This document shows, one piece after another, positions 13,668 to 60,010 of a DNA stretch of 64,000 nt. Below the pieces are notes generated by a model. It was not told the origin of the DNA and searched no databases. It saw only the letters and a list, made by a program, of their open reading frames with translations. The translations under genes were made by a program, and so were the position numbers. The stretch lies in the NCBI GenBank assembly GCA_949358305.1, contig OX442314.1, positions 4,650,001 through 4,714,000 on the forward strand, read 5' to 3'. This DNA is from Strigamia acuminata. Its lineage: Eukaryota. How positions within the stretch are numbered: position 1 is the first letter of the stretch; each line of letters starts with the position of its first letter.

Positions 13668-16600
13668 CCACTCATTTTAGACTAATTGAAAACCTGATCC
13701 AAGTGGTAGTCATGAAAATTCTGTTTATTTTTTTACTAGGACCCAAAAATTATTTTGGGCCCTAAACGTAGCTAGATCAGGAGATTTTTGAACTAATTGA
13801 AAAAAAAAATTTACGATTAATTTTAAGGTAAGTTGGCATGTTTTTACTTTTAGCATGCAAATGTTTAGGGAAACGGTTGCACCCTCTCTGTTTCCTAGTT
13901 GGAAAGAGCTAGGGGTTACAAACTTTCTTAATGTTTCATTGAAACAGAATGTCGCCAAGTCGCCAACTTTGCAAAGTTACTAAAGTTCCTAAAGTCATTA
14001 TCGGTTTTTCTCGCTTTTCCGTGTCACAACATCAATAATTCAACCCACAATTTTCCAATTAACTCCTGAAATGCCTGATTAACAAGCAGCGGATAGAGAA
14101 CTATACTTATCTATAATCAACCAGTACGTTGCTGGGAAACTAAGTATGAATACACACGTGTTGTTAGTTCACCTTGACCTCAGCAAGAGTCGAACAGCAG
14201 AAACTACAGCTACCAATTCAATTCTAAAACACAAAAAATCTCTTTGGCATACAGGATTAATAAGTTTATTTCCACTTATGTAAACATCATAAATGTAATT
14301 ATTAATCACTCAATCCTTTATACTCAATTGGTGTGCGAATAACCTAAAGAATGAAAAGGAACAGAAAACTACGTCTGTCAATTCATCAATTAATGAGAGA
14401 AGATGAGAACAAACCGAGCTGCGGTTTAACTGGTTTAAATGACTTCATTAACAGAAAACGACGTTTGAGCAAGATTCACGCTTTATGGCTTTTTTTGTTA
14501 TTATTTTGCACCTGCATTCTCACTTACCAAACATACAATAGTGTAATGCATTACTTAAGTTATCCTACGGCTGTAGATGTGTCGAGTAGATCGGATGACA
14601 TCGTTTTACCATACATCATGATCTGCAGTACGAATACAAAAGAAATGGCCAGGCTTTGGAATAAAAGTAGTGAATTAGATAAATCAGGTCGAATCAATCC
14701 ATTGCATTGCACAAACATGATGAAAACTATCATGGCAAGTCCAACCTACAAAATGGATGAAGTTTGGAAAGCAACTAATTTGACACCAGAAATAGTGAGC
14801 ATCAAAATAAAAGTAAAAAAAAAGCAAAAATCAAAAATTATCATAAAGAATAAAATCTAATCAGTTACTTTCTGCAGGGATATTCAAACGAAAGCTTTGT
14901 CCAGAAGGAAATGGACAGCCCATTTGGAATGTGCTCAGCATTTTGATTCGGTAAGTGATTAATCAACTGCCTTCCTTTTTTTGCTTCACTGCATGACCCA
15001 ATGTGGTGTGTTTGTGGCTCGGATTGTGTCGGATGGAGTTGGATATTGCTGGATGCGAAAATGGATGGAGTCGAGAAGGAGGCATCACACACGGAAGTAT
15101 TTACATAAGTGTTTTATTTGCATAGAAATTATAGGTGGCGCAACATGCGCTTTCGCACATCGCAAGAACACGACGTGCGTGATGTGCGTCACAAAATATC
15201 AACAGAAAGAAATGGAGTGTACTGTAAAACACTCCACAATGAACTTAATATTGTTAATCCTTGGCGCTGTTTTTTCAGTGTCCTATATGTTTAATTTATG
15301 CAAATAAAATCACTTGTAATTTTACTGTAACAAAAGACCGTTTCGTCCAGTCGTTATCCGCTATTGTGAAATTGCATTGAGTACGAAACTTACAATGGCT
15401 AAAAGTAAAATAATCTTCTTTCCACTGTGTTTAGAAAAGAATTCTAGTAAATCGTTTGTTGGAAAACTACTAACAGTGAATTTTGAAAAGTTTTATCAAG
15501 ACGTCTGCCCAAAAGTTGCATACATGGTAATATAAAAAAAAATTACAATCCAATAGCAACAAAAGAAACAAAATTTCTTTTCTTTTTTTCGCTTATAGAT
15601 TAGGCTATCATTATATAATTTTGGAAAAGCATACATCGTTACATATAAACCTAGTGGTAAAACAGTAAAACTAAGTTTGAGTTATGACAAAGTAAAATTT
15701 AAACTCGATCAAAATGAAACAACTATTCTAAGTCTCCTTTATAATTTAGTACGTGTTTCTCGATTCATCAAAACGCCCGTGCTCAAGTGAAAAAGAATAC
15801 AGAGGTTGCTACCAAAAGTGCTTGTTCAAAAGATTAGAAAACAATCTAACCTGCAGGTAAAAGAAATTTTTTCCTAACTAACCCAAAAAATGACATTTTA
15901 TGCAAATTTACTAACAAATGATGCTAAAAGTTTTTGGTAAATCAAATAACTTAAGCACTGCACTTTTGCTCAAAGTCAAAGCCACTGAACAAAACCATCC
16001 TAAGTTCATTAAATTCTTATTTTTTCTTAAGATTTCCTTTTCTGAAGATGAATTTACCTCTTTGTGAATGTTCAAATGCTATACACGATCAATACGGCAT
16101 TGTAAATAAATTAATTGATACCACAGACGCAATTACTACTTGTGATTGTCGACCTCCATGTCAGCATCTGTCTTTTACACCCTACACAGACTCCGGCAAA
16201 GCAGATGATGAAAAAATAATGTCTTTCACTTTATCACTAACCAATGATAAAATTACCCTGTATCAAGAGCGGTTCACTTACGACGTTATTGCTTTACTGT
16301 CTGATTTAGGCGGCAATTTGGGACTATTTCTCGGCCTATTGTTACTTTCATTACCTGAAATCACACGGTATTTATATTTTGTTATGACAACTATGCGCAA
16401 AACTACCAACCTTGATAAGGTTCGACAATTCTATGAGAAATCCAAGAAAGATGTTACTGACAGTGAAGAGAAAACTAACGGAGTTTTAAGCAAGTTTAAG
16501 TTGCTGCTGATTGTAATTAGTGCAGGATTCACTCTATACTTGTTGCAACGTCGTTTAAACTACTATCTGAAAGATCCTATATCAAAAATCATTACTATGG

Positions 16601-18743
16601 ATCAACGGCGCCACTTAGAGTTCCCATCCGTCACACTGTGTGGTGAAAATCGCAGTGATGAGATGGAACAAGCCAGATTGCAGTTAATTAAACAGACAAA
16701 CAAAACTTGCAATGACATATCACCGTGGCAATTGGTCAACAATAAATTGTCATTAGAAGATATTTGGAAGACCCTAAATATCCATCAAACAATGAGTGTT
16801 AAGGACGTGTACACCAAGGTATACAGATTTAAAAAACCTACAATACAAAGTGTATAAAATATACATTTACTGCATTATTATGGATATGCAACATTACTAA
16901 ACATAGCAATGAGTCTCGTCCCACTTCCATTTGGTTATTGTTCACAAGTTAACACAGGTAATTTACATGGAAACGTGAAGTGATCTCGGTTTCACCAATG
17001 TAAAACTAAGGTCGCTGATGCTTTTGCAAAGACTTATACTTAAAATAGCGCAGGTCGCTGTTCCGGCGTCTAATTGGAGTTGAACGCGGGCTTCGGTCCG
17101 CGTTACGGTGCTCGTTCCGGCAGTTGTCGAAATGTCTGGTTCCTCGGCAATTGGCGTGAGGGAAATCTCTCTGCTCGTGCGAACGGGTACGATCAGATTT
17201 CCGACAAATCAAACGAGAATTCCCATGTTAATTCTATGTATGAGTTCAGCAACGTTGTGGCGATTCCTTCCTTTGTTTCACTGCAGTTGCGGCAGTGAAA
17301 GAGCGTCGAAGCCGTGACTGACTGGAAATAGACTCTTTTCAGGTGAAGAGTTTAACTCTATCTTTTGGTAGAAGATATAACCGAATGTGTCTTGAAATAT
17401 CTGGCTGATATTTCAAGAGATGAATCTAACTCAAACAAATAACTAACAATCAATACTAAAGTAATTTCAAGTTTAGCAGTTATTTTTGTAAGTTCTGGTT
17501 TGTTCAAGTTCTGGAGTCATAATGATTTTCCAAAGAGGATTCCCCTCATGCTAACAGGATGTAGCATTTCCTGTAGCCCAGATTTTCCCTGGTTCACATG
17601 AAAATCATAGGGGCTACATCCTGTGAACCCTGGATATTTCTGCAACCCTTTTAGTACTTACTGTATTTATTTATTTATTACTAAATTACATAAACCAAAT
17701 ATTTTAAAGGTCATAGGAAGTGAAAAATAAAAATTGACAAGAAGATTACTTATGCCATTATTAGACCAAACCCGTTGTTCTTCAGTGATCAATTGTTTCC
17801 AGATTATTATATCGTTTGTTTTAACTTTGAAAAATCGTTATACGTCCTCCATTTTTAGTTTACGAAAGTTTCAAAAAGTTGTCGTTGGTGGCGCTTTTTA
17901 TGACGTCATCAGCGACAAACAAACAGCTTTTTAGCACCTGATTTCACTCAAAAAAATTTTATTTTTATTTTTATTTTGCATAAAATTGAATTTTTGGTGC
18001 ATATTTTATGCGCATAAAACACATTTTATTTTGCACAAATATCCGGGGTCTAGTTATATCTTATAACGAATCGATTTTTCGGGTCCCTTGCGATTCTTTA
18101 TCAAAAGTCTCAAATGTACTGTATTGGAGCCCAGATCCCTACTATGCATAAAATTATTATTTTTTTTAGATAAAACGAACCATGTAACAGCAGAGGTTAC
18201 AATTGCTCTCATAGATCTTTTTCCTCCAGAAGTTTGTGAACAACATCTATGGGTAATATCAAAATACACTTATTTTCGAAAAAATAGTTAATTTTAAGCA
18301 AAGAAAAATGTACGCGGATCTCGATTAGTATGCGGGGAAATCTAGATTTTGTAATTAGAACACCCTCATTCTATTAAAAGACTTGCGGTAAATCTAAATT
18401 ATAGACTAGCCAAATTTTCTGGTGTGAAAGCGGTATTACTATACTCTGATCAACTACAAGGTTGTATGTAACTTACCTTCTCCCATTGGCCAAGTCTCAT
18501 TACTCATATGTGCTACCACCAAGAAAAGTAGTTTTTGTTATTTTTTATTTTTTGGATGATTCTGATGATTAAAATATTAAAATTTTATTTTTTATTTTAT
18601 AATAAAATATTTTTTCTATTTATAAAATATAGTTTTATGCTGTTTTTATTTTAAAATACATGTATTTGTTCAGTTAGTTCAGTTTATTGGTTGTTTTGTC
18701 AGGAAAGCAAACAGTTTTTGAATTTTTTCTTCTCTATTACAAG

Positions 18744-21700
18744 TGGAGTGTCCTACTCCATCGGTCAATCTTGACCAATCGTTATGTTTTGGCGCTTTTA
18801 AGAGTAGCGCCACCTATATTGTAATATCAGAATAAACCAGTCATTTTAGTTTAACTTAGCTGACATGTTGCTTTCTTGACCACTAACTACATCAACGATA
18901 AATACACAACAATTGGCGACGAGAAGGATCGCAATCGACGACCCACAACCAGATGCTGCTTCGTATCAACTTTATTTGTGAGTTTTTGATCGTTTGATGA
19001 ACTTTTTGGCCGTTTTTGACCGTCGCTGACCACGCCGTCCCCGAAGTAGGCCTAGTCGTTCCGTGCTTCGAATTTTCGCGTTATTTGTGCCGTATTCCGC
19101 CTCCTTGCCATCAAGATGTCGGCGTTGAAAGGCACGCTTCGTGAATACGATTCCGGTGATGATTGGGAACTTTATTGTTTGCGTATGGCGAGTATTTTCG
19201 CCTGCAACAAAATAGTTGACGATTTGGAGCAGGTTCACACGCTGCTCGCGTACGTGGGCATGCCGACGTTGAAGCTATTGGTGTCGCTTACAGCACCCAA
19301 GAAGCCGGCCGAATTCAAGTACGACGAATTAGTGGCGCTCATGCAGAAGAACGCGCGCCCGAAGCCGCTCGTTTTGGCCGAAATACGTCGATTTCATCGG
19401 CGTGATCGCCAAGCAGGTGAGACCGTCACTGAATATTCTTTGGCTCTCCAAGATCTCGCCCAAAATTGCGACTTTGGTGAAAATAAATCGGACGAGCTGC
19501 GAAATCGATTTTTATGTGGCCTGCAAAACGAGCAAGTCCAACACGCCTTAACACTGAAAACTGACTTAACTTTTGACGACGCCGTTGCTTTTGCGGCTTC
19601 CGCTGAGGTGTCATCGAAGGAATTTTCGACTATTGCTGCTCAGAATACTGCTGCCACTCCTGTGCATAAACTCCACGAGTCAAAGCCGCGATACGAGCCG
19701 AACAGACGAGGCGGGAAGCGTTTCGCGAAGAAAAATGTTGCCTTTCCAACTCCACACCAACCATCCAGTAAAGGAAATGCGTCGGGGTGCTCGGCTTGTG
19801 GGAAATCGAACCACTCGCGCGATTCGTGTCGTTTTCGAGACGCCAAGTGCCATGGCTGTGGAAAGACTGGACATATTCGTCCGGTGTGTCGCTCCCAGAT
19901 TCCGAAATCGAATTCCACTCACGTTGTTCGCTTTACCGACGATATGGACTTTTATCAAGTCCGCTCTGGTCCTGCAACTGCAGTGAATTCCGTGTACTTG
20001 CCACGTGTGAAGCCAGTCATGATAACTATTTGTATCGATGGTGTCAATCTCGATATGGAGATGGACACTGGGGCAGGTGCTTCAATTATTGCTTTGGATC
20101 TGTATTTAAAACATTTTTCTCATTTTCCATTGCAGACCATTCCGTGCAACATGTACACGTATTCAGGCGACCAAATACAGATGGAGGGGGTTATCGAGGT
20201 TCCAGTCAGGTTTAAAAATCGAAATTTTCAATTGCCGCTCTGTGTCGCACGGGATGGTCCAGTTCCGTTGTTGGGCAGAGGTTGGTTGTGTATGTTTGGA
20301 CTCCTTTCGAAAACTGCCGAAGCGGTCGGCGCGAAAATTTACAAGACCGATTCCGTTGCTCCCAAACCCGAGGTTTTAGATTCCACTTCAGCCAAAGCTT
20401 TGGAAACGCTGTTGCTGAAGCATGAGCACACTTTCCGAGATGAAATCGGTCGCTTTAACAAGTCCACTGTTCACATTGACGTTGATCCGGCGGTACAGCC
20501 AATTTTTCTAAAAGCCTATCCAGTTCCCATAGCAGTTAAGCCGCTGGTCGAGGCTGAGTTGGCGCGCTTACAAGCGCTGGGTATTATTTCCCCGGTTGCA
20601 TCATCACGTTGGGCAACGCCCGTGATGCATGTTAAAAAGTCTGACGGCACCATCAAATTGGCTGGTTGCTATAACCGGACAATTAACAAAGCTATTTTTC
20701 CCAACTCATATCCTTTGCCTCTATTTGCAGATGTGACCGCCAAGTTGTCGGGAGGGGAAACTTATTCAGTATTGGATATGAATTCAGCTTTCAATCAATT
20801 GGAATTAGATGAGGAGAGCAAAATGTGTTGCACAATTAATACTCATTTGGGCCTTTTCAGAGTAAATAGGTTGTTTTATGGCATTTCATCCGCTCCCGCT
20901 CTATTCCAGCAAACGATGGACCAGTTGACAGCCAAGGTGAATAGTGCGCAACCATTCATAGATGACTCCGCCGTGACAGGTGCGACCAACGCGGTTCACC
21001 TGCAAAATTTGGACGTGCTTTTGACGACGTTCGGTGGAGCCGGTCTCACGTTGAATCGCCGGAAGTGTCACTTTTTACAGCAATCGATCCAGTTTTTAGG
21101 TTTAAACATTTCTAAACTAGGTATTTCCCCGATAGATTCAAAGCTCGCTCCACTCAGAGATGCAAGGCGCCCCAGTGATGTAACCTCTTTGAAATCGTTC
21201 CTTGGTCTCATCAATTACTACGGTCGCTTTGTTGCAAATTTGTCTACTCTGCTCGAACCGTTATATCGTTTAACACGTGACGATGTCGAGTGGAAGTGGA
21301 CAGAGGAGCACGAGTCCACATGGAAAAAGGTTAAGGTTGCTGTGTCCACTGAGTCGGCACTAGCCCACTTTGACCAGTCCAAAAAATTATTCTTGACGGT
21401 TGATGCTTCCCCGGTAGGTGTGGGAGCATTCCTTTCTCATCTTGATTCCGATGGTAATCACAAGCCAATTGCTTTTGCGAGTTCTCTCTTGTCGGCCGCG
21501 CAGAAGAACTACGCACAGATAGAGCGTGAGGGATTCGCCATTATTTATGGCATTAGGAAATTCCATCACTATCTGTTTGGGCGTCGTTTCTTCCTGCGTA
21601 CGGATCACAAACCCCTTGTCTCGATATTCGGAGAGAAAAAAGGATGTAACCAGATCGTGGCTGCACGACTGCATCGTTGGGCGGTATTTTTATCCGCATA

Positions 21701-23539
21701 TGATTTCATTATTGAACACGTGCCTGCTGTGGACAACGCCATTGCCGATGGCTTGTCTCGTAATCCACAACCGAGTGTGGACAGCAAAGAAGATTTGGAA
21801 GTCGGCATTAACAAAATTTATTCTGCTTTCATTTCAGATTTCCCCATGACTGCTACTTCTCTGAAAGCTGCTTATGCAGCCGACGAAGTATTGCAAGCTG
21901 TTTTGCGACATGTTCGCACCGGATGGGAATCACGCACGCCGGACACCGCTGAATTTTATAAACACCGGGACTCGTTCTCAACCTTTGACGAATTTTTATT
22001 TCTCTCTGATAGGTTGGTGATCCCGAAAACTGTCCGTCGTTCGGTGTTGGTCGAGCTCCACGCAGGTCATTACGGCATTGTCCGTACCAAATCGTTGGCG
22101 CGAGCCACGGTTTGGTGGCCTGGAATCGACGCTGACATCGAGCGCACAGTTAAGAGTTGCGATGTATGCCAGCGAAGCTTGCCCGATCCGCCCAAATCAA
22201 ACACCGTCAGTTGGCCAGTTCCAGACCAGGTGTGGGGACGGGTGCATCTCGATTTCGCCGGTCCGTTTCACAACTCGATGTTCCTGCTGGCGGTTGACGC
22301 CAAAACCAAGTGGTGCGAAGTGCGTAAGATGTCAACAACGACCGCCGCCGCCACTATTGACGTGATCAAGTCTTGGTTTGAAAATCACGGTTTGCCGTTG
22401 CATTTTCACACCGACAACGGACCACAGTTTACCTCGCAGGAATTTCGCCAGTTCTTGGCGATAAATGGAATTCGTCACACTCTCTCACCGCCATACCATC
22501 CAGCTACAAATGGCGCGGTTGAGGGTTTCGTGAAGACTTTTAAAACCCAAGTTGATAAATTTCTAACCTTGAATTTTTCCTTGTCGGATGCCGTATCCCG
22601 TTTCATCGCGTCGTATCGCACAACACCTCACGCTACGACGAAAGTTTCACCAGCTGTCGCCTTCCTTCAGCGTGAAATGCGGACCCGACTACATTTGCTG
22701 AATCCGCGACTTCTACCCGATGTTGATCAGATTGACATTCCGCGCCGTTTTGAAGTCGGGGACCTTGTGTTCGCGCGGGATTACCGTGGCACTCCTAAGT
22801 GGATACCCGGTATAGTTAAAAAGAAGACTTCTTCATCTACTTACGATATTGAAGTCGCTCTCGACGTGACGTGGAATCGACACATTGACCAGTTGCGACG
22901 TCGCGCAGATCCGAGTTTGTTGCCACAAAATGGGGGGAAAGATTGTAGAAGTTCTCTTCTTCCTTTTTCCATCACTTCTCAACCAACTGCACCGCCTGTA
23001 CCTGTGCCTGCGCCCGTGCCTGATCCGCTGCTCACCATTCCACCCGTTATCGTACCACAAAATGTTGCTCCAACACATGCACCACCGCTGCCCGTTCGTG
23101 CGCCATCGCCACCTGCAATTGCTGGCCCGAGTGCTCCAGTTCCTTTAGCGCTTAGCCCTCGACCAGTCCGAAACAGGAAACAAACGGACTTTTATGGTTT
23201 TCCACCGAATTGATGTTTGTGTTTGTGTTTAAATTAATTGATCTCATTTTGTGTTAGTTTAAATTCCATACTTTGTTCTTTATTAGCCTTTATATACATG
23301 TGTTTAATGTTTAATTTGTTTTATTCCCTTCTTGATTTATAATTGGTGTTTCTCCCAATTAAAGGGGATGTTGGAGTGTCCTACTCCATCGGTCAATCTT
23401 GACCAATCGTTATGTTTTGGCGCTTTTAAGAGTAGCGCCACCTATATTGTAATATCAGAATAAACCAGTCATTTTAGTTTAACTTAGCTGACATGTTGCT
23501 TTCTTGACCACTAACTACATCAACGATAAATACACAATA
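18744..23539 (+). mobile_element. Gypsy B (Mag-like), full-length, apparently intact, in an intron of ENaC gene 1
   Basis: 168-bp LTRs at 18744-18911 and 23372-23539 with one mismatch; TSD ACAAG; PBS TGGCGACGAG at 18914-18923; PPT AAAGGGGA. Confidence 0.97.
19116..23213 (+). CDS. Gypsy B single-ORF gag-pol, 1365 aa
   Basis: Two CCHC knuckles, EMDTGA protease, FIDD RT, VDASP RNase H, HHCC and DDE integrase, uninterrupted. Confidence 0.96.
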   Translation: MSALKGTLREYDSGDDWELYCLRMASIFACNKIVDDLEQVHTLLAYVGMPTLKLLVSLTAPKKPAEFKYDELVALMQKNARPKPLVLAEIRRFHRRDRQAGETVTEYSLALQDLAQNCDFGENKSDELRNRFLCGLQNEQVQHALTLKTDLTFDDAVAFAASAEVSSKEFSTIAAQNTAATPVHKLHESKPRYEPNRRGGKRFAKKNVAFPTPHQPSSKGNASGCSACGKSNHSRDSCRFRDAKCHGCGKTGHIRPVCRSQIPKSNSTHVVRFTDDMDFYQVRSGPATAVNSVYLPRVKPVMITICIDGVNLDMEMDTGAGASIIALDLYLKHFSHFPLQTIPCNMYTYSGDQIQMEGVIEVPVRFKNRNFQLPLCVARDGPVPLLGRGWLCMFGLLSKTAEAVGAKIYKTDSVAPKPEVLDSTSAKALETLLLKHEHTFRDEIGRFNKSTVHIDVDPAVQPIFLKAYPVPIAVKPLVEAELARLQALGIISPVASSRWATPVMHVKKSDGTIKLAGCYNRTINKAIFPNSYPLPLFADVTAKLSGGETYSVLDMNSAFNQLELDEESKMCCTINTHLGLFRVNRLFYGISSAPALFQQTMDQLTAKVNSAQPFIDDSAVTGATNAVHLQNLDVLLTTFGGAGLTLNRRKCHFLQQSIQFLGLNISKLGISPIDSKLAPLRDARRPSDVTSLKSFLGLINYYGRFVANLSTLLEPLYRLTRDDVEWKWTEEHESTWKKVKVAVSTESALAHFDQSKKLFLTVDASPVGVGAFLSHLDSDGNHKPIAFASSLLSAAQKNYAQIEREGFAIIYGIRKFHHYLFGRRFFLRTDHKPLVSIFGEKKGCNQIVAARLHRWAVFLSAYDFIIEHVPAVDNAIADGLSRNPQPSVDSKEDLEVGINKIYSAFISDFPMTATSLKAAYAADEVLQAVLRHVRTGWESRTPDTAEFYKHRDSFSTFDEFLFLSDRLVIPKTVRRSVLVELHAGHYGIVRTKSLARATVWWPGIDADIERTVKSCDVCQRSLPDPPKSNTVSWPVPDQVWGRVHLDFAGPFHNSMFLLAVDAKTKWCEVRKMSTTTAAATIDVIKSWFENHGLPLHFHTDNGPQFTSQEFRQFLAINGIRHTLSPPYHPATNGAVEGFVKTFKTQVDKFLTLNFSLSDAVSRFIASYRTTPHATTKVSPAVAFLQREMRTRLHLLNPRLLPDVDQIDIPRRFEVGDLVFARDYRGTPKWIPGIVKKKTSSSTYDIEVALDVTWNRHIDQLRRRADPSLLPQNGGKDCRSSLLPFSITSQPTAPPVPVPAPVPDPLLTIPPVIVPQNVAPTHAPPLPVRAPSPPAIAGPSAPVPLALSPRPVRNRKQTDFYGFPPN

Positions 23540-25017
23540 ACAAGTGTCTCTACATGTAGTGCAATTCTGGTGTTTTGATCTACTTTTTTGTACCGATGCA
23601 CAAGTGAAATGGCTCAGCCAATGGGAGAATGTACAGTACAACCTTGTAGTTGATCAGAGTATAGCAGGTAAGATAATATCACAAGTCGACTGCTTCGGCA
23701 CTTCCCATTGGTCAAGAATCGATAAGTGGTGTTTTTTCATAAATCTAGGTGATGCTTTCAAACACTGATTTTATATTAATTTAACCAAATTCTATCTAAA
23801 TCCAATTACAAACATTTTCAGTTTTTTCTAAATAACCCAGAAGATGAAGTCAATATATTAGCACCCATGTTTATGACCTATGGCTCTTTCAGTGTATTTG
23901 CTCTTCGTATATCTAAGGTAACATTCGGGTGCATATTAAACATACAAAATTAAAAAATTAAACCATGATTATGTTATCAAATAGACCATTCGAAGAAATA
24001 CAAAACTCAACCCATGTGAGCAAAACAAAACTGCTTATTTCATGTGTCAAACTGCCTGCACGCAGAACAATTTATTTCACAGGATCAATTGCAGGTATTG
24101 TTGTCGTTCTTCTAGCAAATGCTGATAATATTTGAGTGTAATCTAGTAATCATTCCTTCCTTCCATCAATACTGTTATAAAATACTATGGTTGTTTCAGA
24201 TTGCCGTACATGTTATCACCAAGTTTGGCATCTTGCAACACGATGGAAGACATTACTCGTGCCCATTCCCAGTATTTTAGCAATTACAATTACAATCAAA
24301 AAACCTGCAAATGTAAACAACCCTGCAAAATTACTTATTACCAAACTATCGAGCATGAAACTAAAATGAAATATAATCAATACACATTTATAACGCTTCA
24401 GCTAGCTGATAGCTTCGACGAGTCTACAATAGACGACCTAAATTATCCAATATCTTGCTTGTTAAGTGATGTCGGCAGCATTGTGGGATTAGCATTCGGA
24501 ATGTCAATACTTTCTTTGCACATTTATCTTTTAAAAATTTATAATTGGCTTTGCCTCAAACTGGGTGGTCAATATTGACCACCAAGCTGAAGGCATTCTA
24601 ACCTATTTGGACATGAAAATATCTTAATTCCATTGGTAGCAATTCGCCTTTTCAACCATATTGTTGTGCGGATAATCCACACCGTAAGCTGGCTGTTTTA
24701 GACGCCCACATTTAGATAATTAGTACGGTTGATCCAAGGCTACTTGAATACTATAAGGTTGCGCCATCTGGCGAAAAAATAGCAATTTTGCGCGCATCGA
24801 TCTGCGCACAACGTGACTGATGGGACCTTGATGTCACAGATTATAATCTGTATTGTTGTATCACCGGCAATTCATGGCGTCAAATTAAATTAAATTAAAT
24901 TGAATTCACACGCATGGAATTAGTCTCAATTTTATTTTATTTTATGTTAACATAAAATTCGAGTATTAACTCTCTGTATTAAATATCCCTAGCAATCTGA
25001 TATCACATACCAGTATA

Positions 25018-30512: not shown

Positions 30513-30953
30513 CGTCCTTCTCTGGAATCTCGGCTCTCAGTGCGTCGCGCATTTTCTCTGGAAAGTAGTGGATCAAGGTCTCTTGACTCGCCCAGAATCG
30601 CGAGCGGGCTCTGGACGCGGTGAGTCGTTCCACTCGTGTTCGCTTGGATCTTCATCCATTTCTTCCTCTTCGTTATCGGGCGATTGCTTCCAGTTTCTTC
30701 GCATTCTTGATTTATTTGTTGGTTGCGATCTTTGTCTGTTAAACACCTGTTGTTGTCGTAACGGATTGCGGAGTGCACAGTTTAAAAGGTAGTCGAGGTT
30801 AAGTATTTGATTGGTTTTCGTATAAGATGCGTATTTTGATTGTTGGAGTCTCCTTGTGATTGTTTTTGTCCCTAGGAGGTCGGGGTAATTACGTCATCTT
30901 TGTCTTTATCCTTTTGATTGGTTAAGCCAACCATTTTGGATCTTTCTGCTGCA

Positions 30954-36520: not shown

Positions 36521-36609
36521 GTTTCCGTTTTGAGGAAGGAATTGGTTATTTTGCGAAGAATTCTGGCGCTGAGGAGAATTCTGGTTAGTTAAAGTTGGGG
36601 AAGTCGTGG

Positions 36610-37698: not shown

Positions 37699-37749
37699 AG
37701 TTCAAACCGTAAGATATGTTTATTTTAAATAGTTTGAATGTTCAAAACT

Positions 37750-47600: not shown

Positions 47601-48929
47601 ATAACCTTTAGTTAAATCAATGGACGTAAAGTACTTGGCCTGATTAGTATGATGAATTAACAGGTCAATACTTGGCATTTGAATTGCATCAACTTCTGTG
47701 ATTGCATTCAACCAGCGGTAGTCGATACATAATCGATACTTCCCGCCGGGTTTAGCCACTATGACGGGGTGACTTATATAGGGGCCAGTGGCAGGTTCGA
47801 TTAACCCATCGGCCTCCAATTCCTCGACCAATTCCGTCATAATGGCCTTCTTGGCCGGGTTGTACATTCTATACGGCTGGTGTTTCCAAGTAGCACCAGG
47901 TTTAAACTTGATGCTGTGCTTGGCAACCTTCGTGCAGCCCAATTGATCTCGAAATACGTTTTTTAATTTCAAAAGAACGTTTATGAGTAACTGTTTTTCT
48001 TCTGCCGAGCTGTTGCAGCCTTCGACGAGTTTTTCTGCCCAGTCAGGTGAAGTGGGAGATCCTTCACCTTGGAGACCCAGAGTCCTAATGCTTGCTAAGC
48101 AACAGTTAAGTTCAGTGGTCTCGTATGGTGCTGTCCATCCGGGCATGTCATCACAGGTGAACACAGCCCGTCGGGGATTAGGGTTTATCCCCGTTCTACG
48201 CATAAAATTGTGACCCAAAATCAACCCACATACATTCTTGTGTAGAATTATGAAGGTCATAGGTGTAACTCTCCTTTTATCGGCCCATTTGACACAAAGA
48301 CAAACTTGACCGATAGGTCGGTGATCTATTCCGACTGCGCAGACACGCATTCCCCGAGGACATTCTTGTATGAATTCCACCGGAATTTCTGTGTTTGAAA
48401 GGAGTTGTACTCCAATAAAACATTGGGTGGCTCCAGAGTCCATTAGTGCGTTGTAATCCAAACCTCCAATTTGGACATTCATACGCGGATCATCTTTGCC
48501 ACCATTAATTAATTTGCTATTGCAAAGTTTGCCAAGAAATACTTTACGTTCTTTTTTGTTCCATTTTTCAAGTTTAAGAAGTTTTCTTAACTTGAAAATC
48601 TTAGGTACAAGTGGTTTTTTCGGTGCATTCCAACTTCCACTGAAAATACTCAAATTTTCTAGTTGGTCTGTCATGATTTTTAAATTTTCATCGACACCAC
48701 CAGTGGAACTACTCGCTTTCCGACAGACAGGTACTGCTTCGTAAGAAATGACCAATGATGGTGGTTTATTCTTCGAATCGTCAACATAAGGCACTGTGAG
48801 ATGACTAGGCTTATGTCTTATTTTAATTTCTTTTTTATGTGAAAATAAATCATTGGACAATTCCGAGAGAGGAAACAACTCTTTAGGCGGGGGTTGGGCA
48901 ACTTGAACAACCCCCTGAATCAGTTTTTT
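44655..48929 (-). pseudogene. Gypsy D pol with two frameshifts
   Basis: LMDSGA, YLDD, LTDAS, HHCC, DDE, GPW motifs over three frames (breaks near 46650 and 45845); A_AAA_AAC at 48923-48929. Confidence 0.9.
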
Positions 48930-49975
48930 GTCTCGTCGGGGGTGACTGAATCAGTGGCTGCTGGTAAGTGCTTAATTAACAGGTCAACCATGTTTTTCTG
49001 GAAGTCAGTAAATTTGGAGTCTAAAGTTTCTGACGTAACCCAATTTTGTTTGGGTCGTTTAAACTCGGGGTTGGGAGCAGAGTGGTTAAATCTTTTATTT
49101 GAATTTAACGAGTCTGCTTTCCCTGCTAATTTTTTGGCAAGAGCGGGACATTCTCTTTTAAAATGTTCAGGCTCGTGACAGAAAAAGCATTTTCCAGTAG
49201 TCTTTTCATACTGGGCGGCAAATAATCGCTCCATTGAACCATCGTCAGTTGAGTCGTCATTTTCCGACTCGTCTTCATCTTCAACCTCATCTTGTGTTTG
49301 CGTTAAACGTAGTGAAGTTTTAGATGGAAAAATCTTAGATTTTTCGTGAATTTTTGGAGTAGGATGATTCTCTCGATTATCGTACTCCAATTTTGCTGCA
49401 AGTTGGGCAGAACTTTCAAACTTAGAGCGATTTGCTCCTACATATTGTAGAATGTCATCTACTGTAAAGTCACCATACATCCCTTGTGTACATAACGCCG
49501 TGAAACTTTCTTGGGTTAGATTGTCGAATAATTGCGCACGTCCAGTTTTATCACCTGGCGGCACTTCACCTTGTTCTTGCGTATAACGCAGAAGAAAACT
49601 GTAAAGTGACTCGTCGGCTCGTTGTTTTACATTAAGAAGTCGCCTTTCTCTTGTAAGTGGAACGAGATCGAAACAATCGAGGAAAGAGGCTTCGAAAGTT
49701 CGCCAACTATTAAAAGTATGACGTTGCTTATGGAACCAACGTTGTGCATGGCCTAATAGTCGTCCAGGTACAGCAGTGTGTACCATGTCGTCTAAAGGGA
49801 TGCCTTTCCCGAGTGCGACAGCTTTGACGATTTCAAGGAATCGTGCAACCTCTGTCTGTTTCCCGTCACAAATAGGAATCTCGATTCCTTTTCCAAAATT
49901 CTGACTGGAATTACTCGGGCTTCGGATTTGACCAACTAAACCCTGAATAATTTGTTTTACATTTTCGTCTGACAA
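48920..49975 (-). CDS. Gypsy D gag
   Basis: LLGHAQRWF...SWRTFEASFLDCF; CFFCHEPEHFKREC knuckle. Confidence 0.85.
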   Translation of the reverse strand: MSDENVKQIIQGLVGQIRSPSNSSQNFGKGIEIPICDGKQTEVARFLEIVKAVALGKGIPLDDMVHTAVPGRLLGHAQRWFHKQRHTFNSWRTFEASFLDCFDLVPLTRERRLLNVKQRADESLYSFLLRYTQEQGEVPPGDKTGRAQLFDNLTQESFTALCTQGMYGDFTVDDILQYVGANRSKFESSAQLAAKLEYDNRENHPTPKIHEKSKIFPSKTSLRLTQTQDEVEDEDESENDDSTDDGSMERLFAAQYEKTTGKCFFCHEPEHFKRECPALAKKLAGKADSLNSNKRFNHSAPNPEFKRPKQNWVTSETLDSKFTDFQKNMVDLLIKHLPAATDSVTPDETKN

Positions 49976-50949
49976 ATTAGAAGCAGCGTTCGAGTTGGGT
50001 GTAGACCGACTTTCTTGGTCTCTGGGTGGTGGATTTGGCTCTTCGCGAAAATTTTGGCGTCTATCAGGTGGAAATTATTGTTATAATTTCCCCCTCTACC
50101 AGCGTGAGATTCGTCACTACTCGAGTTAGGATCGGAGTCACGAGGATCACCAGGAGCTCCGGGAAATCGTTGATTTCTCGGCGGAGCTCGTCCACCTTGA
50201 GAGCGGGAATTTCTATAATTCCTAAAATCTCCATCAGATTGGGTGTGAGATTGAAAATTTTGATAATTTTCATTTCTCCCCCTTGGTTGGATCGACAGAT
50301 TAGTTCGAGGCTGTGGAACTCTGAAAGAATCATTCAAATTCCCAGTGGGAGCGGGTAAATTATTATTTACTGCCGTCGCACTTGGCAAATTTCGGGAAAT
50401 TGGCGCAGAAATATTTCCTTGTCCGGAATTTCCCATTCTTTCGGCTGAATTCGATCGCCAAGAACTAGCTGGTAGCTGAATCAAAGGTTGAACAGATAGT
50501 GAAGAATTTAACTGCCCATTGTCGTCACGAGCAACATTCATTCGCCATCCAGGTAATTGCTGGTAGCGATATGTGGCCGGTGAACGAGGGCCAGTTCGAT
50601 CTACAGAAACACTTCGTTCGTTGGTTACAACTACATCGGGAGTAATTACACGATTTCTCTCGTGATGATTATTCGCCGTGTATTGTTGAGCTTCACACAA
50701 AGAGGAAAACTGCGTCACCTCCAATTGGTAATGGCGACAGTAAACTTCTAAATCATGCGGGACTGATAGTGGATCTGTCCGAGAACTACTTGGGTTGGAA
50801 ACGTCTCTAGGAACATTTTCTTCCCCCTGGCTTTCTAGATCAGACTCCACAATTCCTCTTGGTGTTTCACACATACCACCACGTCGTCGTGCTCCACGAT
50901 TTCCTCGTGTTCCACGAACTCTTACAGGTCTACGGGCCATAATACTCAA
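49957..50949 (-). CDS. Gypsy D ORF0, probable N-terminal gag extension
   Basis: 330-aa Arg/Gly/Asn-rich ORF overlapping the gag frame, which is open from about 50074. Confidence 0.6.
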   Translation of the reverse strand: MSIMARRPVRVRGTRGNRGARRRGGMCETPRGIVESDLESQGEENVPRDVSNPSSSRTDPLSVPHDLEVYCRHYQLEVTQFSSLCEAQQYTANNHHERNRVITPDVVVTNERSVSVDRTGPRSPATYRYQQLPGWRMNVARDDNGQLNSSLSVQPLIQLPASSWRSNSAERMGNSGQGNISAPISRNLPSATAVNNNLPAPTGNLNDSFRVPQPRTNLSIQPRGRNENYQNFQSHTQSDGDFRNYRNSRSQGGRAPPRNQRFPGAPGDPRDSDPNSSSDESHAGRGGNYNNNFHLIDAKIFAKSQIHHPETKKVGLHPTRTLLLICQTKM

Positions 50950-51785
50950 AGAAATATACGTACAAAAGAAAAAATAAAATTTAACTGAACTAGCGTAAAT
51001 GTAACACGCTTAATATTAAACTAAGAAATAATTTGAAAAAATACAACCTTAGCTGCTGAAACTGAAGTGGCTTCGGGAAAGAACTGTCCTGTTGTGTGGT
51101 CAAGAATGGTCCAAACGGGCACTGGTCACAAAGGCACAACTGGATGGTCACACTGTCGAAAAGCAAGTGTGGCTGAATATTGGTTGTCAAACTCGCTTCC
51201 GGAAAATCTCCTTTGTCAAGACAGTCTGCTGTGATTGGTGATGTTGAAAAAATTCCTGATAATTTCTAACCCGAAATTCTCAACAATGTCACATCTGGAT
51301 GACCTACTCCGAGCTGCATCGTGAGTGGCTCTCATTGGCACATTCTTTACCTTGTCAAGGATTAAGAATAATAATCCAGAACATTGGCAGAACAATAGAA
51401 AAACTGGTCAAGTTTTCAACCAGTAAAATAAAATATTTATTTTTTAGTTAGCAGAATTTCTAGTCAAATTCGTTTTTTGATCGAAATTAAATGTTTCGAA
51501 ATTTTCCAGAATATAGCCGAATATTCTGGGAAACTCAATAAAATCATAATAGATTTTTCGTAAGAGATTCGGAATTATAATGAGTTTTTCAAAATAATTC
51601 AAAAATTCGAATTCAGATATTTTCAAAAGATAATGAGAATTTTTTGAAAACAAATGGATATTTCACAGTAAATTTATAGAGAAAATCGGAAATTTTCTAA
51701 TTATAATATCTACATAAAATAATCAAAAAATTCATTTTTCTATTTTACACTTGATCACAGAGTTCACTTCAATAAAATGCAACCT

Positions 51786-53652: not shown

Positions 53653-53826
53653 AAGCTGCGTAGACCGGACATAGCACCGACCGGACAGCTGTGTGGACCG
53701 GACAGTTTGGAGGGCCTAATTTGGTCCCGCCCTATACCCAGCAATGTTAAATCGCCTCTCCCATCCGGACATTCCCTAGACCGGACAAGTTTCTGGGACC
53801 CGTCCTATGTCCGGTCTACACAGCTT
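53653..53826. mobile_element. Small MITE upstream of ENaC gene 2
   Basis: TIR AAGCTGCGTAGACCGGACATAG / CTATGTCCGGTCTACACAGCTT with internal CCGGACA repeats; TSD unclear. Confidence 0.6.
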
Positions 53827-54014
53827 ACACTGTATGGCCATTTGGGTGTCTGTTGATCTGGTTAACTTGAAACTGATCACACTTGTTTAAATTAAGAAAA
53901 AGTTACTACACATGAAAGCATTTCGCATAATATGTCAGGTGACAATCAATTAAAGTAATCAATATTAATCTCAACAGCTTCGTGCCACATCGATAACTGC
54001 ACTTAAAAGAAACA

Positions 54015-57000
54015 ATGGAGAGAGAGGATTCAAATCGACCGGTAGACCGAATTCAACAAATGAGAAGACGAAAACTGTTTCAACTTGTTCGCATTACTAT
54101 GTCGAAGCAACAGAGGACTCCGGCATTCATCAAAAGTTTGACAAAAATATTGGAAAAGAAAAGAAATATCAAGATTTTACTTTGCGTGTTACTAATTATC
54201 AACTTGGCAGCTTGTGTTTATCAAACAGTAGATCGGGTATTGTATTTCATGGACGAACCCACAGCAGTTGATGTACACATGATTGAAACAACGCATGGTT
54301 CCTTTCCCTATGTTTATTTATATCCATACACTACGCAAGAATTTAACAATTTTATTTTCAACAAGACAAAAGACTCTTACGACAAAGATCAATGTTCAAC
54401 TCTAATGAGCCCAATATATTCAGATTTTAATATCAGTGATATTCTAAAATATTCTACTGTACATAGCTACATAACTGATGCCTACTTCAAAACAGTAAAT
54501 CATTTTCATTTTTTCTGCTAACCAAACTAGAAAGGTTTAACCAAATGTGGAAAAAATTATATTTACAGCCTAAAATGCGCATTAACCTTACAATTGCAAA
54601 TTATGAGGCTGTGAGGGATGCCATTGCACAAGTTTCCAGTGGTAATCAACAATATTTCTTTTTTTCTTCATGTTTACAAGTTCTTTTTTCCCTTAGCAAT
54701 TTCGTTTCCTTATGGGAATTCTGCTTATAAGATGGTCATAAAACTTAATTTTCCCAAGCAATGTTCAATTGTTCGAGTGAGTATTTAATTTCATCGACAA
54801 TTCACACAATTTGTTTTGCATTTCTCACAGCCACGAAGTTAAACACCACATTTTTAAAAAAATGAGCGTCCCTTTGTAGCTGTCAAAATTGTGAAATACT
54901 CAGTAATATAAATTTGATAATCATTCTTGAAACCATTGCATTCAATTTCAAGGTGTTAATAGATCCATCAGCAGTCGTTTATCATTTAGACAAGAGTTTT
55001 GCGCAAATGCTACTAATAATAAAACATGGCAAACATACAGTTGGGATTAGAGTGCAAGAAGTAAGGATTAAATTAATAATTATTCACACAGAAAAGAGAA
55101 TTATTTTCTAGCCATTAGTCAAAAGTATTTTGTGGATCTATCAGCTTTATTTAAGCACAATTGCTAATTATTTGCTAATATGTAATAAGAGCCATTCGTA
55201 ATTTACATAATGTTGGATTTTGGTTGACTAGAATTAACATCAACACGTAACATCAAATTTCGGTTACAAGGTCGTAAGAAATTCACTCCCTTCCTCCCTA
55301 GAAAATAAGATAATAAAAAAGACCGCCTTAAGATGCTATGTTATTTAAGGAAGGCTCCATAATAATACAGAAATTTGAAACATTTATTTTAGTATCACTA
55401 CATCAACACTAAGAAAAATCCATGTGATAATAATTTACATGATTATCGCCCATGTCTCGTCAAACGAATGAAATGCAAGTAAGTTTTTTAATTCGACTCA
55501 ATAACAGAATTCAATGAAAGAATATTTATTTCTGTGCATAAATCACATATCAAAACATTTAAAAAATATTTTTTTATCTGACTGTTATTAATAAAAATTA
55601 GAAGTTAACTTACATAAAGGTTGTCACATTAGATATCCATTTTATGAAGCGAGAAATCTGCCGGAATGCAATGACAACGACACCAAGATTCAGTTACAAC
55701 AAATAGAATACCTTACCTTAGGTGGCACAGTATCACAGTGTAGATGTGCTAATTTATGTGATGAGACAAGTTTCAGCCAAACATTTGAAACAACACCTGA
55801 TGATGGAGATAAAATACACATTTATGTTGTCAATACTTTCGTTCGAACATTAGTGGAACACTTTTCTTATGACATCATCAATATGCTATGCGACATTGGA
55901 GGAAACATCGGCCTCTATTTCGGCATTTCTTGCTTGACACTGGTCGAAATATTCATTCATTTGTGCAAAATATGCATCAGCAAACCAACAACAGCAAATT
56001 CCACGTTGACAGATAAAATTGAAATGACACTTGAAAAGATGCAGAATCACCGAAAACCAACTTTCGTTAAAAAGTTGATCAAAATCACAACATCACTTTT
56101 CCTTGGGTCGATGTCAGTCTACTACATTTACCATTTGATTGATTCTTATTTTCAATTTCCACTCTTGAAAGCTGTTAAACTCATTAGGGATGAAAAAATT
56201 CATTTTCCACCCATTATTGCATGTGCAGATAGTAGAAAAATATCACATGCTAAATGGGAATTAGCCAAAAAACTCAACACAGCCGATTGTGCTTGTTTAC
56301 AACTGTTGGATTTACTCCATCCACTATCTGAATTCGCAAATCAACCACTGCAATTGTGGAATGCCTCCTCTCTTCTTGATGTCTACGACAGAGACCGGAG
56401 AAATTATCTTAAGGTAAAAAATCAGAATATTTAATTATCAATTCAAACGTGTATAAATTTCACAAACTTGTAGAGCGGGGCAACAGCAGAAGAAGGTGAA
56501 TTACATTTTGCTAAATTATCATTAAAACCAACAGTGTATGGAATGTGTATTGCGTTTAATCAAGGTAAAAATAAAAAAACAAGTCACTTTTAATTCTCAC
56601 TAAAATATTTTTACACAGTTGACCAGCCGTTTTCTCGAAAGCAAAACATTGTAATGATTTACGATTACGAACAGCTCGGTGGTGACTGTTTTAAACGAGA
56701 AGTGAGATAGAAGTTTATCCTTTGTACTGTCAATTGCAGCAGTTACTAATTTCACTTTCTGTATTCCAGCACTTTATTTTGCCAACAAATCAATTTTTTC
56801 ACCCGAAATATCGTTTAGATGTATCCAACGATTTAACTCTTTTTGTCAACTTTGCCCCTCAAACGGTGAATTCAAAAAATGATTAATCCACTGACTATAA
56901 GGTTGCCCTTTCTCCCATTGGCCGAGTGTCACTACTTCCAACTGTAGACTGTGTACTACCACTAGGAAAAGTACTTTTTATTTTTGTGATTATTATAAAA

Positions 57001-58563
57001 TAAAGATTATAATGATAGAATTTTAATTTTATTTTATAGTAAAATGTTTTTTCCATTTATAAAATAGAGTTTTATGCTGTGTCTAGTTCGACAAACATGT
57101 TTGTTCAGTTTATTGGTTGCTTTGCCTGAAAAGCACACTGTCTGTACATCGATTGCAATTCTGGTGTTTTGGTCTATTTTTTGTATCACTACATAAGTGA
57201 AATGGGTCGGCCAATGGGAGAAAGGCCAACCTAATAGTAAGCCAGAGTATAGCGCATTCGAAAAGCCATTGCAACAGTTTAAATGGCGTGATTAAAATTC
57301 AAAAATGGCAACCAATTTAATCTGCTTCGGCTGTCATTTAAATGTCTCGATTAAAAAAGTATAAATAAAAATAAAAAATGTTTAACAAGTGCTTTTGAAT
57401 GCGCCGACCGTTATTTGAAATGTTTATCACTGCCTAACCGAGTAACAAATTTGCGAAATTGTCGTCACTATTGAGAAATTGTAGCCAGTTTTAAGAAATT
57501 ATCGACAGTTTTAAAAAAATCATATTTTTCTTTGGTTTGGGGCCCCAATTTGTTCAAAGGCTCACACTGCAGCTTGTGTGGGTGTGGCCAAATTGCCAAT
57601 TAGTTGATTAATCTTTCTAGCTTGTTCGATTAAATACCCCGAGAAGTCCTTGCAGACCAAATGATGAAGTTTTAAGATGTGAAGAAAACTGCTATGAAAA
57701 GATACTCGAGCAACAAACTTTCAATTGCAGGTAACTTGCAATTCATCCACTAATTACCGTGCATCCCATATTGCAATTTACAAATCGTACATTGTTTGAA
57801 AATATTCCCAACAATCAAATGGAGCAAATTTATTGGTAGCAGCAGGTGTATTCAGGTTTACATTTATAAACAGCAAAAACTGCAAAAAGGTGTAAAGCAC
57901 CATTCATTTAGTTTAAAAATTAAACAGTTTAATCGTCTGAAGAAGAACTGTTTCAGAACTGTTATTTTAAAAAAAAACACTTGCCACAAATTTCAAAATG
58001 AATAATAACGGTATTTATTTTTAAAACTTTCAAAGATAGAATCTAAAATCATTGAAAAAAATGCTCATAAGCAATTGTCATTGTTACCAATAAATTTAAT
58101 TTGCCACATTTGATCTGCCTAGCTAAGTTGCTATCCCAAACAGTTCAAGTGTTTGCCCAATTTTTAATAACTGGAAAAAATCATGTGTCATGGCACACTG
58201 TGTATTTCCAGTAAATGTTGTTGTATTACTAGACTTCCATCCATGGATAAGAGTAAATTTCCCCTTTGCCTATCTCAAGAGACGGCTAAAACCACTTATC
58301 AGACATATTTGAAAACTCTGTTGAAGACAAACCCCCGAAAAGACTGTTACCGCAAAGCATCTTGTCAAGAAACCATCTACAATCCTTCAATTACCAACAG
58401 CTTAGAGAACCGAAGACCCTTTGTTTGGTATATGTTTGAAAATAACATCAGAGAAATAATTGAAGAACAGCAAGAGGTTACTATTGTAAAGTTATTGTGT
58501 CAGATTGGATCTATTATTGGTATTCTCACTGGTTTCTCCTTATTTTCTCTTCTTCAATTTTGA
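54015..58563 (+). CDS. Two-domain DEG/ENaC gene 2, about 11 exons, roughly 770 aa, apparently intact
   Basis: TM1 plus YFMDEPT...FPYV; TM2 MLCDIGGNIGLYFGISCLTLVE then second TM1 and FPPIIAC in the same exon; last TM2 LLCQIGSIIGILTGFS; GT-AG exons join without stops by manual reading. Confidence 0.85.
56890..57251. mobile_element. Diverged copy of the 18442-23661 MITE in an ENaC gene 2 intron
   Basis: Shared TTCTCCCATTGGCC, GCAATTCTGGTGTTTTG, GCCAATGGGAGAA and CAGAGTATAG segments. Confidence 0.7.
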
Positions 58564-60010
58564 TTGCCTTTAATTCCACGGGTTTAAAATAATAAAATGT
58601 TGCTTAACTTATAACTGGATGCATTGAATTTGTACTGTAAATGTACTAATAATACGCGACATGTACTCTACAACGCAGAACTAAATCGAACTAAGTTGAA
58701 CAAAACGACTAAAAGAAATGTCTAAATTGATCAAAAACACTAAAAATTCGTGGGAGAAATTTAGGTTCTGACAACAAAATGTCCGCGTTCTATTTAAAGC
58801 ATTTAGAGTTATTGGTTAAGCCACTTCTGCATTGTTTTGCAGTGAAGTTTTACCCCTTTATTGCACTCTTGCACACCCTTTTTTATTATCCTCCTTCTTA
58901 CTGTGTGAGACCCCCTGAAAACTATGTAAACCAATCAGGGTGCTCACGTTGTTTCTCCCTCTGCACTTTTCCAAACAAAGCATTGTAGTTTAAGCCGTAG
59001 ATATTGTCACCATCTTTCAGCTGCTGCTACACATCTCAACATCTCCAGAATACAAGAAATTCTTTTCTTCCTTACACAACAGTGACTTTTTAATAAATAC
59101 ACTTTTAACACTAGGCAGAGCTGCTAAATAGCTGTGAACCAGCAAAGCAAGCGTTTAAAAAGTGACAAAGCCTAAAACAATACTTTAAGTCACCTAATTT
59201 TTCAAAAAGAGTGTCCTGAAATAAATTTTTAATTATCCATAGCACGATAAGTGATTGTTCGTACAATTAAGTCAACATGAACCTAGGTAGTGGTAAATTC
59301 TCGGATATATTGTTCAACATAGAAATACTTTATCTTGTAAGCACAATTAAAATCTCACAGCACTTGGAACATCATTCCATACTTATTATCTATTAATTTA
59401 TTAAGATTACTGTCAGTTACCATGTACAATTTTTATTTCGATTAATTAATGCAACGTTGTGGAGAGAAAGCGCACTCAGTGTCATTTAAACTTGTTTTCA
59501 GTATATTTTTTAAACCACTCTAAACGTAAAATTTTGCACTTTAAATGTGTAATGTAATTCATCAACGCAATAAAATTTGAGTCAAACGTGTGTGAGTAAT
59601 TGATTTTAATTTAAACTCTATTTTCAATTCAGCAATAAAAATATTAATCTAGAATAACAGATCAATCAAATATTTTACGTCATTTTATGCCATTCAAGTC
59701 CCCATGTCTTTCTATCAACTTAGATAAACGGATAAAATCACAGTTGGCTTGTCAGTAGATTTAATCGATACCAACATGCCGAAATACAATCAATTACGTT
59801 AACCCTGCCATGACGTACCCGCCATCTGTCGGTCCAAATACGAAATAAATTAACACCGACCATCCGATCCAATCAGCTTTTTGATTTTGGTCATCTAAAT
59901 CCGATCCAAATTTTTCGGATGTATTTGCACATTTGTTATTTCAATAAAACAAATGAAATTAAGCAATTTTAAACCGAATTTTTCAGCATTCCGATAACAT
60001 TTTGATCACG

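What the first reader, a model, noticed from the sequence alone, without database searches (positions are those of the whole stretch)
54015..58563. DEG/ENaC gene encoding two fused subunits (natural concatemer)
Seen: within one exon (55633-56413) TM2 of subunit 1 runs through a roughly 35-aa linker into TM1 and the FP motif of subunit 2 with no stop, giving four TMs; both halves share intron positions such as the C-R/K|x-P junction. The pre-TM1 HG motif is not evident and filters read GIS and GFS. Known: DEG/ENaC subunits normally have two TMs and form trimers. Inference: a two-subunit chain must recruit a third single subunit (2+1), link channels together, or be cleaved.
Basis: partly seen in the sequence, partly recalled or inferred. 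Interest (0 to 1): 0.8.

Follow-up and report, generated by a model that had tools for sequence, protein, structure and literature searches.

The report
Natural two-subunit DEG/ENaC channel chain
This gene, likely from a centipede, joins two subunits of the three-part DEG/ENaC ion channels in one reading frame, as many centipede relatives do (shrimp gene models join all three), so it likely builds a lopsided channel completed by a separate third subunit.

Summary
Confirmed and extended. An 11-exon model (all GT-AG, 772 aa, no internal stop) encodes two DEG/ENaC units; the TM2-linker-TM1 joint lies inside one exon, and the five introns repeat in each half (phases 0,1,0,0,2). It is not a one-off: a second tandem gene about 25% identical lies in the same window, and 32 of 150 listed HMMER hits span the joint, mostly Strigamia maritima models where looked up (11 of 15). 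First units and second units form separate clades (SH-aLRT 97 and 95), so the fusion is old and the halves specialised: unit 1 keeps a canonical pore helix, unit 2 a divergent, here shortened one. Separate fusions give three-unit chains in shrimp (uninterrupted ORFs on 4.2-5.3 kb Logan contigs) and a second centipede family. Closest solved relatives are the centipede sensory channels BRTNaC1 and PDPNaC1. Most likely mechanism (0.5): 2+1 assembly with a single-unit partner. Not shown: expression, stoichiometry, current. Ten paper searches and four look-ups in this scan's notes found no description.

The parts
54015..54494 (+). Gene A exon 1: ATG, cytosolic N-terminus, TM1 of unit 1 (aa 54-72), FP motif
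54569..54641 (+). Exon 2 (phase 0 to 1); equivalent of the GxCxxFN exon, degenerate here (DAIAQVSS)
   Evidence: predicted
54697..54776 (+). Exon 3 (phase 1 to 0)
   Evidence: matches the start of S. maritima P0004
54953..55060 (+). Exon 4
55393..55478 (+). Exon 5, start of Cys-rich thumb of unit 1, ends at C-K|Y-P junction (phase 2)
55633..56413 (+). Exon 6, the fusion exon: thumb and TM2 of unit 1, linker, TM1 and FP motif of unit 2
55892..55978 (+). TM2 of unit 1: D363(0'), G366(3'), N367(4'), G369(6'), GIS 373-375, E381(18')
55979..56077 (+). Predicted cytosolic linker, about 33 aa, no stop; in-frame ATGs at 56024 and 56039; no AATAAA/ATTAAA and no GT[AG]AG donor anywhere in exon 6
56084..56140 (+). 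TM1 of unit 2 (aa 427-445), weakly hydrophobic in this copy
56474..56564 (+). Exon 7 with GMCIAFN motif
56619..56701 (+). Exon 8
56770..56865 (+). Exon 9
   Evidence: matches P0009
57621..57730 (+). Exon 10, thumb of unit 2, ends at C-R|L-P junction (phase 2)
58233..58563 (+). Exon 11: thumb and TM2 of unit 2 (Q753 0', S756 3', I757 4', G759 6', GFS 763-765, Q771 18'), stop at 20'+1
58591..58596 (+). AATAAA 28 nt after the stop (candidate polyadenylation signal)
14351..24578 (+). Gene B: second, divergent two-unit DEG/ENaC gene with the same 11-exon plan (fusion exon from 16032); in-frame TGA at about 14944-14946 and an irregular intron 6, so probably a pseudogene or an assembly error

Best explanation
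The gene is an old head-to-tail fusion of two DEG/ENaC genes whose predicted four-helix chain likely fills two neighbouring places of one trimeric cation channel, with a separately encoded single-unit relative likely filling the third. Shown: the two-unit frame, the repeated intron plan, the family, separate clades for first and second units, and their different pore helices. Inferred: one mRNA and one uncleaved chain; the short cytosolic linker joins TM2 of unit 1 to TM1 of the next subunit; unit 1 gives a canonical pore face and unit 2 a modified one (hydrophobic residue at 4', the site where PDPNaC1 Ser376 mediates proton block; in this subfamily also Q at 18' and a short TM2b), so the pore would be asymmetric and poorly Na+-selective; a sensory role is suggested only by kinship with the antennal channels BRTNaC1 and PDPNaC1.
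For: Joint inside one exon. Introns in the same alignment columns in both halves and in gene B. 32 of 150 listed hits span the joint in one stretch; 11 of the 15 looked up are S. maritima. 115-row tree: first units one group, 97 support, all 13 rows carrying the joint; 35-row tree: first units 97, second units 95; keeping gene A's halves together is rejected, p-AU 0.005. G3'-N4' pair in 13 of 13 first units, N4' in 0 of 10 second units. AlphaFold2 model of the S. maritima two-unit relative P0013: pLDDT 71.9, pTM 0.66; residues 423-772 match BRTNaC1 (Z 21.5, rmsd 3.8, 323 aligned) and 51-381 match PDPNaC1 (Z 19.9, rmsd 3.3, 312 aligned). Three-unit chains, a whole trimer's worth, occur in relatives with joints as short as 73-76 aa from GxS to FP. 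Single-unit models of the same clade exist in S. maritima (P0042, P0059, P0053, P0026). Engineered three-unit ASIC1a concatemers were recorded from (PMC5449180, passages).
Against: Nothing here measures stoichiometry or shows a partner. Unit 2 of this copy has a weak TM1 (KD 1.18) and ends 7 residues after GFS, which could mean it does not line a pore. In the 115-row tree the second units fell into two groups (gene B and P0001 apart; not forced by strong branches), and the 35 rows were my selection. S. maritima model P0069 is a second unit alone that starts at the end of TM2 of unit 1: probably a 5'-truncated model, but it could be a real split form. The S. maritima entries are automatic gene models. 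I could not see the model's coordinates, so the packing of the halves was not checked.
Confidence: 0.5

Rival explanations
1. The chain needs no partner: units of several chains complete each other's trimers (for example three unit-1 copies form the pore and unit 2 hangs on as a tethered accessory or forms second trimers), which would cross-link channels into pairs or clusters.
For: Unit 1 has the canonical pore helix of homotrimeric channels (13 of 13), while unit 2 keeps a Cys-rich ectodomain (12 Cys) but a degenerate TM2. PDPNaC1 is a homotrimer (PMC12714832 abstract passage).
Against: Three-unit chains in two other lineages point to linked units sharing one trimer. Unit 2 keeps G6' and GxS in gene A. 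Whole-chain pTM 0.66 hints at a fixed arrangement of the halves (weak).
Confidence: 0.25
2. This particular copy is a decaying member of an expanded family; the family is real but gene A makes no working channel.
For: Short last helix, weak TM1', lost GxCxxFN in unit 1; neighbour gene B carries a stop and an LTR element; transposon-rich window; many contigs only 90-95% alike suggest several copies, and an exon-3 insertion is listed in X2 and X3 without the compensating deletion seen in X1 (20 indel rows hidden).
Against: 772 codons and 20 splice sites intact; orthologue P0009 ends only 2 residues later; AATAAA follows the stop; of 25 coding differences among the 40 shown (397 hidden), 11 are silent and none is a stop.
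Confidence: 0.12
3. The halves end up as separate subunits, through a promoter or splice inside exon 6 or cleavage of the linker, and assemble as an ordinary heterotrimer.
For: In-frame ATGs in the linker; unit-2-only model P0069; linker sequence is poorly conserved.
Against: Unit 1 has no stop, no polyA signal and no strong donor in exon 6; the joint keeps a narrow length (90-117 aa GxS to FP in the centipede rows where the motif was found) across proteins about 20-25% identical.
Confidence: 0.1

Closest known systems
BRTNaC1 (Scolopendra subspinipes mutilans heat-activated channel; PDB 8ymr/8ymw; PMC9974506)
   Same: Best sequence and fold match of the family (P0013 E 6e-20; Z 21.5); compact ectodomain; centipede.
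   Different: One 431-aa two-TM subunit per chain; no tandem form mentioned in the passages seen.
PDPNaC1 (centipede antennal proton-dissociation channel; PDB 9jf7; PMC12714832)
   Same: Best PDB hit of unit 1's C-terminal part (E 9e-8); no HG motif; G6' (Gly378) kept in both units of gene A.
   Different: Homotrimer of single units; Ser376 (4') is N in unit 1 and I in unit 2 of gene A.
ASIC/BASIC/ENaC/FaNaC/PPK (Pfam PF00858)
   Same: TM1, FP motif, Cys-rich thumb, DxGG..GL..GxS helix per unit.
   Different: One unit per chain; heterotrimers such as ENaC are built from separate genes.
Engineered ASIC1a concatemers (PMC5449180)
   Same: Subunits linked C- to N-terminus on the cytosolic side, fixing an asymmetric pore.
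   Different: Artificial and three-unit; here natural, two-unit and diverged to 17% identity between halves.
Internal duplications in other channels (two-pore channels, K2P, four-domain Nav/Cav; recalled, no call)
   Same: Subunits of a symmetric oligomer fused and then specialised by position.
   Different: There the repeat number divides the symmetry (2 into 4); two does not divide three.

Membership tests
DEG/ENaC superfamily (per unit) | Pfam ASC PF00858 match | tested here: met
   Exon 6 44.3 bits, 2 stretches, above cut-off; exons 1 and 11 hit below cut-off
DEG/ENaC superfamily (per unit) | Two TM helices around a large Cys-rich ectodomain | tested here: met
   Hydropathy (TM1' weak); 9 and 12 Cys; both halves of relative P0013 match the fold
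DEG/ENaC superfamily (per unit) | GxS motif in TM2 | tested here: met
   GIS and GFS
DEG/ENaC superfamily (per unit) | Pre-TM1 HG motif | tested here: not met
   Absent in both units; also in 0 of 15 testable relatives and PDPNaC1, so not required in this clade
DEG/ENaC superfamily (per unit) | E18' in the lower pore (PMC5449180) | tested here: inconclusive
   E381 in unit 1; Q771 in unit 2
Canonical DEG/ENaC subunit | One two-TM subunit per polypeptide | tested here: not met
   Two units in one frame; hence a variant, not a canonical member
DEG/ENaC superfamily | Trimeric assembly and cation current | not testable with these tools
   Needs expression; a 2+1 model exceeds the 1000-residue limit
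BRTNaC1/PDPNaC1-like centipede sensory channels | Antennal expression; heat or proton gating | not testable with these tools
   Only sequence and fold kinship shown; BRTNaC1 and PDPNaC1 were not in my trees

The most novel reading that the evidence does not exclude
Arthropods have repeatedly turned the trimeric DEG/ENaC channel into single-chain forms: centipedes run an old, expanded family of two-unit chains as a fixed scaffold with one exchangeable third subunit that sets the stimulus (a combinatorial receptor code), while shrimps and a second centipede family encode the whole pseudo-trimer in one polypeptide, the trimeric counterpart of the four-domain Nav/Cav channels.
Probability: 0.4. 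Interest if true: 0.88.

Novelty: new variant of a known kind. Interest (0 to 1): 0.76.

Why it matters
DEG/ENaC channels are described as trimers of single two-TM subunits. A natural two-unit chain cannot fill a three-fold channel by itself, so it forces a new assembly rule; the three-unit relatives are natural versions of the concatemers that biophysicists build. They give ready-made tests of how each of three pore positions contributes to gating and selectivity, show the first steps by which a symmetric channel becomes asymmetric, and add a large unannotated candidate sensory-receptor family in centipedes. Such models may also be discarded in family surveys as annotation merges (my inference).

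Tried and rejected
No whole genome is held. No RNA holder listed; X1-X3 cover introns, so they are DNA-like and say nothing on expression. A second read lay over the stop codon gave no answer, so variation at the stop among copies is unknown. Word-index search with exon 6 (longer proteins) found 0 of 764 candidates; with P0013 2 of 1280. AlphaFold2 of exon 6 with a 2-row alignment: pLDDT 38.7, discarded. Complex prediction of the two halves of P0013: no answer (0.09; alignment not used), not used either way. AU test on 115 rows did not finish; done on 35 rows instead. ESM Atlas listed only ASC clusters of 378-643 aa. Annotation-merge explanation rejected for gene A (joint inside an exon) but left open for midge P0022 and leech P0056, whose units group by gene. 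A third unit up- or downstream of gene A: no tblastn trace in the window and an in-frame stop lies just before the ATG. Papers: 10 searches; two were weak because 'DEG ENaC' did not match 'DEG/ENaC'. Term look-ups in PMC5203786, PMC7067487, PMC8438182, PMC9974506 (passages only) showed no tandem forms; PMC8438182 counts 46 of 578 insect PPKs with 3-5 predicted TMs without calling them fusions; its supplements, unread, may hold such models. One paper by DOI was not held. Subscription journals are not covered.

Full report
Observation. The window holds a eukaryotic, transposon-rich region. Between 54015 and 58563 an 11-exon model with GT-AG introns gives 772 aa without an internal stop. Exon 6 (55633-56413) carries TM2 of a first DEG/ENaC unit, a linker of about 33 aa and TM1 plus the FP motif of a second; Pfam ASC hits this exon in two stretches. 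The halves are 17% identical over the alignment (local hit E 1e-8). Introns have phases 0,1,0,0,2 in each half and fall in the same alignment columns. The gene is therefore a tandem duplicate of a six-exon ancestor in which the last exon of copy 1 ran into the first exon of copy 2 (inference). Since the joint is inside an exon it cannot be a gene-prediction merge. Exon 6 has no polyA hexamer and no GT[AG]AG donor; AATAAA follows the final stop by 28 nt.

A family, not an accident. tblastn of the window found a second gene with the same plan at 14351-24578; its fusion exon is 26% identical. It has an in-frame TGA in exon 2, an irregular intron 6 and an LTR element in intron 8, so it may be dead. 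A profile of the two fusion exons against 1.84 billion proteins gave 1737 hits at E up to 0.001; of the 150 listed, 32 cover TM2, linker and TM1 in one stretch (35 rows picked by eye, filtered; P0098 among them is doubtful). Of the 15 of these whose source I looked up, 11 are Strigamia maritima models, 1 midge, 1 shrimp, 2 unnamed Logan ORFs. Gene A's nearest relatives are S. maritima models at 41-54% identity, so the window is likely from a related centipede (inference).

Age and specialisation. In a 115-unit tree the first units form one group (SH-aLRT 97) whose 13 rows all carry the joint; second units fell into two groups without strong support for the split. In a 35-row subset that I chose, first and second units each form one group (97, 95), apart from single-unit relatives, and holding gene A's halves together is rejected (p-AU 0.005; quick trees with long-branch warnings). 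So one old fusion preceded the expansion. The pore helices differ by position: G3'-N4' in 13 of 13 first units; N4' in 0 of 10 and G3' in 1 of 10 second units, mostly with a hydrophobic 4'. By alignment 4' is PDPNaC1 Ser376, reported to mediate proton block, and 6' is Gly378, its selectivity determinant (PMC12714832, synopsis and section 10). Gene A unit 2 also has Q at 0' and 18' (E18'Q abolishes selectivity in ASIC1a; PMC5449180 passages) and stops at 19'; the orthologous model P0009 has N0', Q18' and ends two residues later, so the short end looks inherited rather than a fresh nonsense change. Other family members keep a full last helix.

Repeated evolution. Three-unit chains of 1244-1289 aa occur in the shrimp Halocaridina rubra and in unnamed Logan ORFs that group with them (97), with position-specific clades. 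Five Logan clusters lie on contigs of 4.2-5.3 kb, just longer than the coding sequence, so these are uninterrupted frames in assembled reads, likely transcripts. Their second joint is only 73-76 aa from GxS to FP. A separate, younger S. maritima family (units 53-56% identical) has overlapping models P0007 and P0006 that together indicate three units. A midge three-unit and a leech two-unit model group by gene and may be recent fusions or merges.

Structure. AlphaFold2 on S. maritima P0013 (27-row alignment) gave pLDDT 71.9, pTM 0.66, four membrane helices and a helical low-confidence linker; each half matches a whole BRTNaC1 or PDPNaC1 subunit (Z 21.5 and 19.9; Foldseek E 1e-19). This is a relative, not gene A itself.

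Mechanism. Two does not divide three. I favour a 2+1 channel (0.5): linked units most plausibly neighbour each other in one trimer, as three-unit chains imply, and single-unit relatives are available in the same clade. A partner-free, cross-linked assembly is the main rival (0.25); decay of this copy (0.12) and separation of the halves (0.1) follow. Expression, stoichiometry, partner and stimulus are all untested.

Population data. Runs X1-X3 cover introns and hold many contigs 90-95% alike, suggesting several copies or alleles. Of 40 differences shown (397 hidden) 25 are coding: 11 silent, 14 missense, 0 stops; insertions at 55444-55446 add up to three bases; an exon-3 insertion is compensated in X1 but not visibly in X2 and X3.

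Novelty. Ten library searches and term look-ups in six papers (passages; one full section) found no natural DEG/ENaC concatemer; the database entries are 'uncharacterized' or 'hypothetical'. Four look-ups in this scan's notes returned only other DEG/ENaC topics. Subscription journals and supplements were not seen. Verdict: real, new variant of a known kind, interest 0.76.

Noticed in passing
window 14351-24578: Second two-unit DEG/ENaC gene (gene B), with an in-frame TGA in exon 2 and an irregular intron 6; nearest S. maritima models P0001/P0005 at up to 60% identity.
   Followed up: yes
window about 18744-23537: Ty3/Gypsy-type LTR element with an intact 1385-aa gag-pol frame inside intron 8 of gene B; the two LTRs are near-identical (168 of 176 including flanks), so the insertion is recent.
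   Followed up: partly
P0029, P0047, P0156-P0158, P0031, P0033: Three-unit single-chain DEG/ENaC proteins in shrimp and unnamed Logan contigs, with position-specific units; deserve their own study.
   Followed up: partly
P0006, P0007, P0012, P0021 (S. maritima where looked up): A second, younger centipede concatemer family with two- and apparently three-unit members.
   Followed up: partly
P0018, P0024, P0045, P0069 linkers: Some linkers keep a remnant of the pre-TM1 segment of unit 2 (FPGLQYIL-like), resembling the xPG motif that stands in place of HG in single-unit relatives; gene A's shorter linker lacks it.
   Followed up: no
TM2 position 4': Non-first units have mostly hydrophobic residues at 4' in both the centipede two-unit and the shrimp three-unit families, which arose separately: possible convergence.
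   Followed up: no
window 420-4013, 4647-9515, 28239-37701, 41695-51009: Several further LTR retroelements (Gypsy-type, one Copia-type with a 1445-aa frame) fill most of the window.
   Followed up: no
window 56890-57260, 53684-53867, 58691-58746: High-copy short repeats (MITE-like, with inverted ends in intron 9) seen as depth peaks; a related element surrounds the LTR insertion in gene B's intron 8.
   Followed up: no
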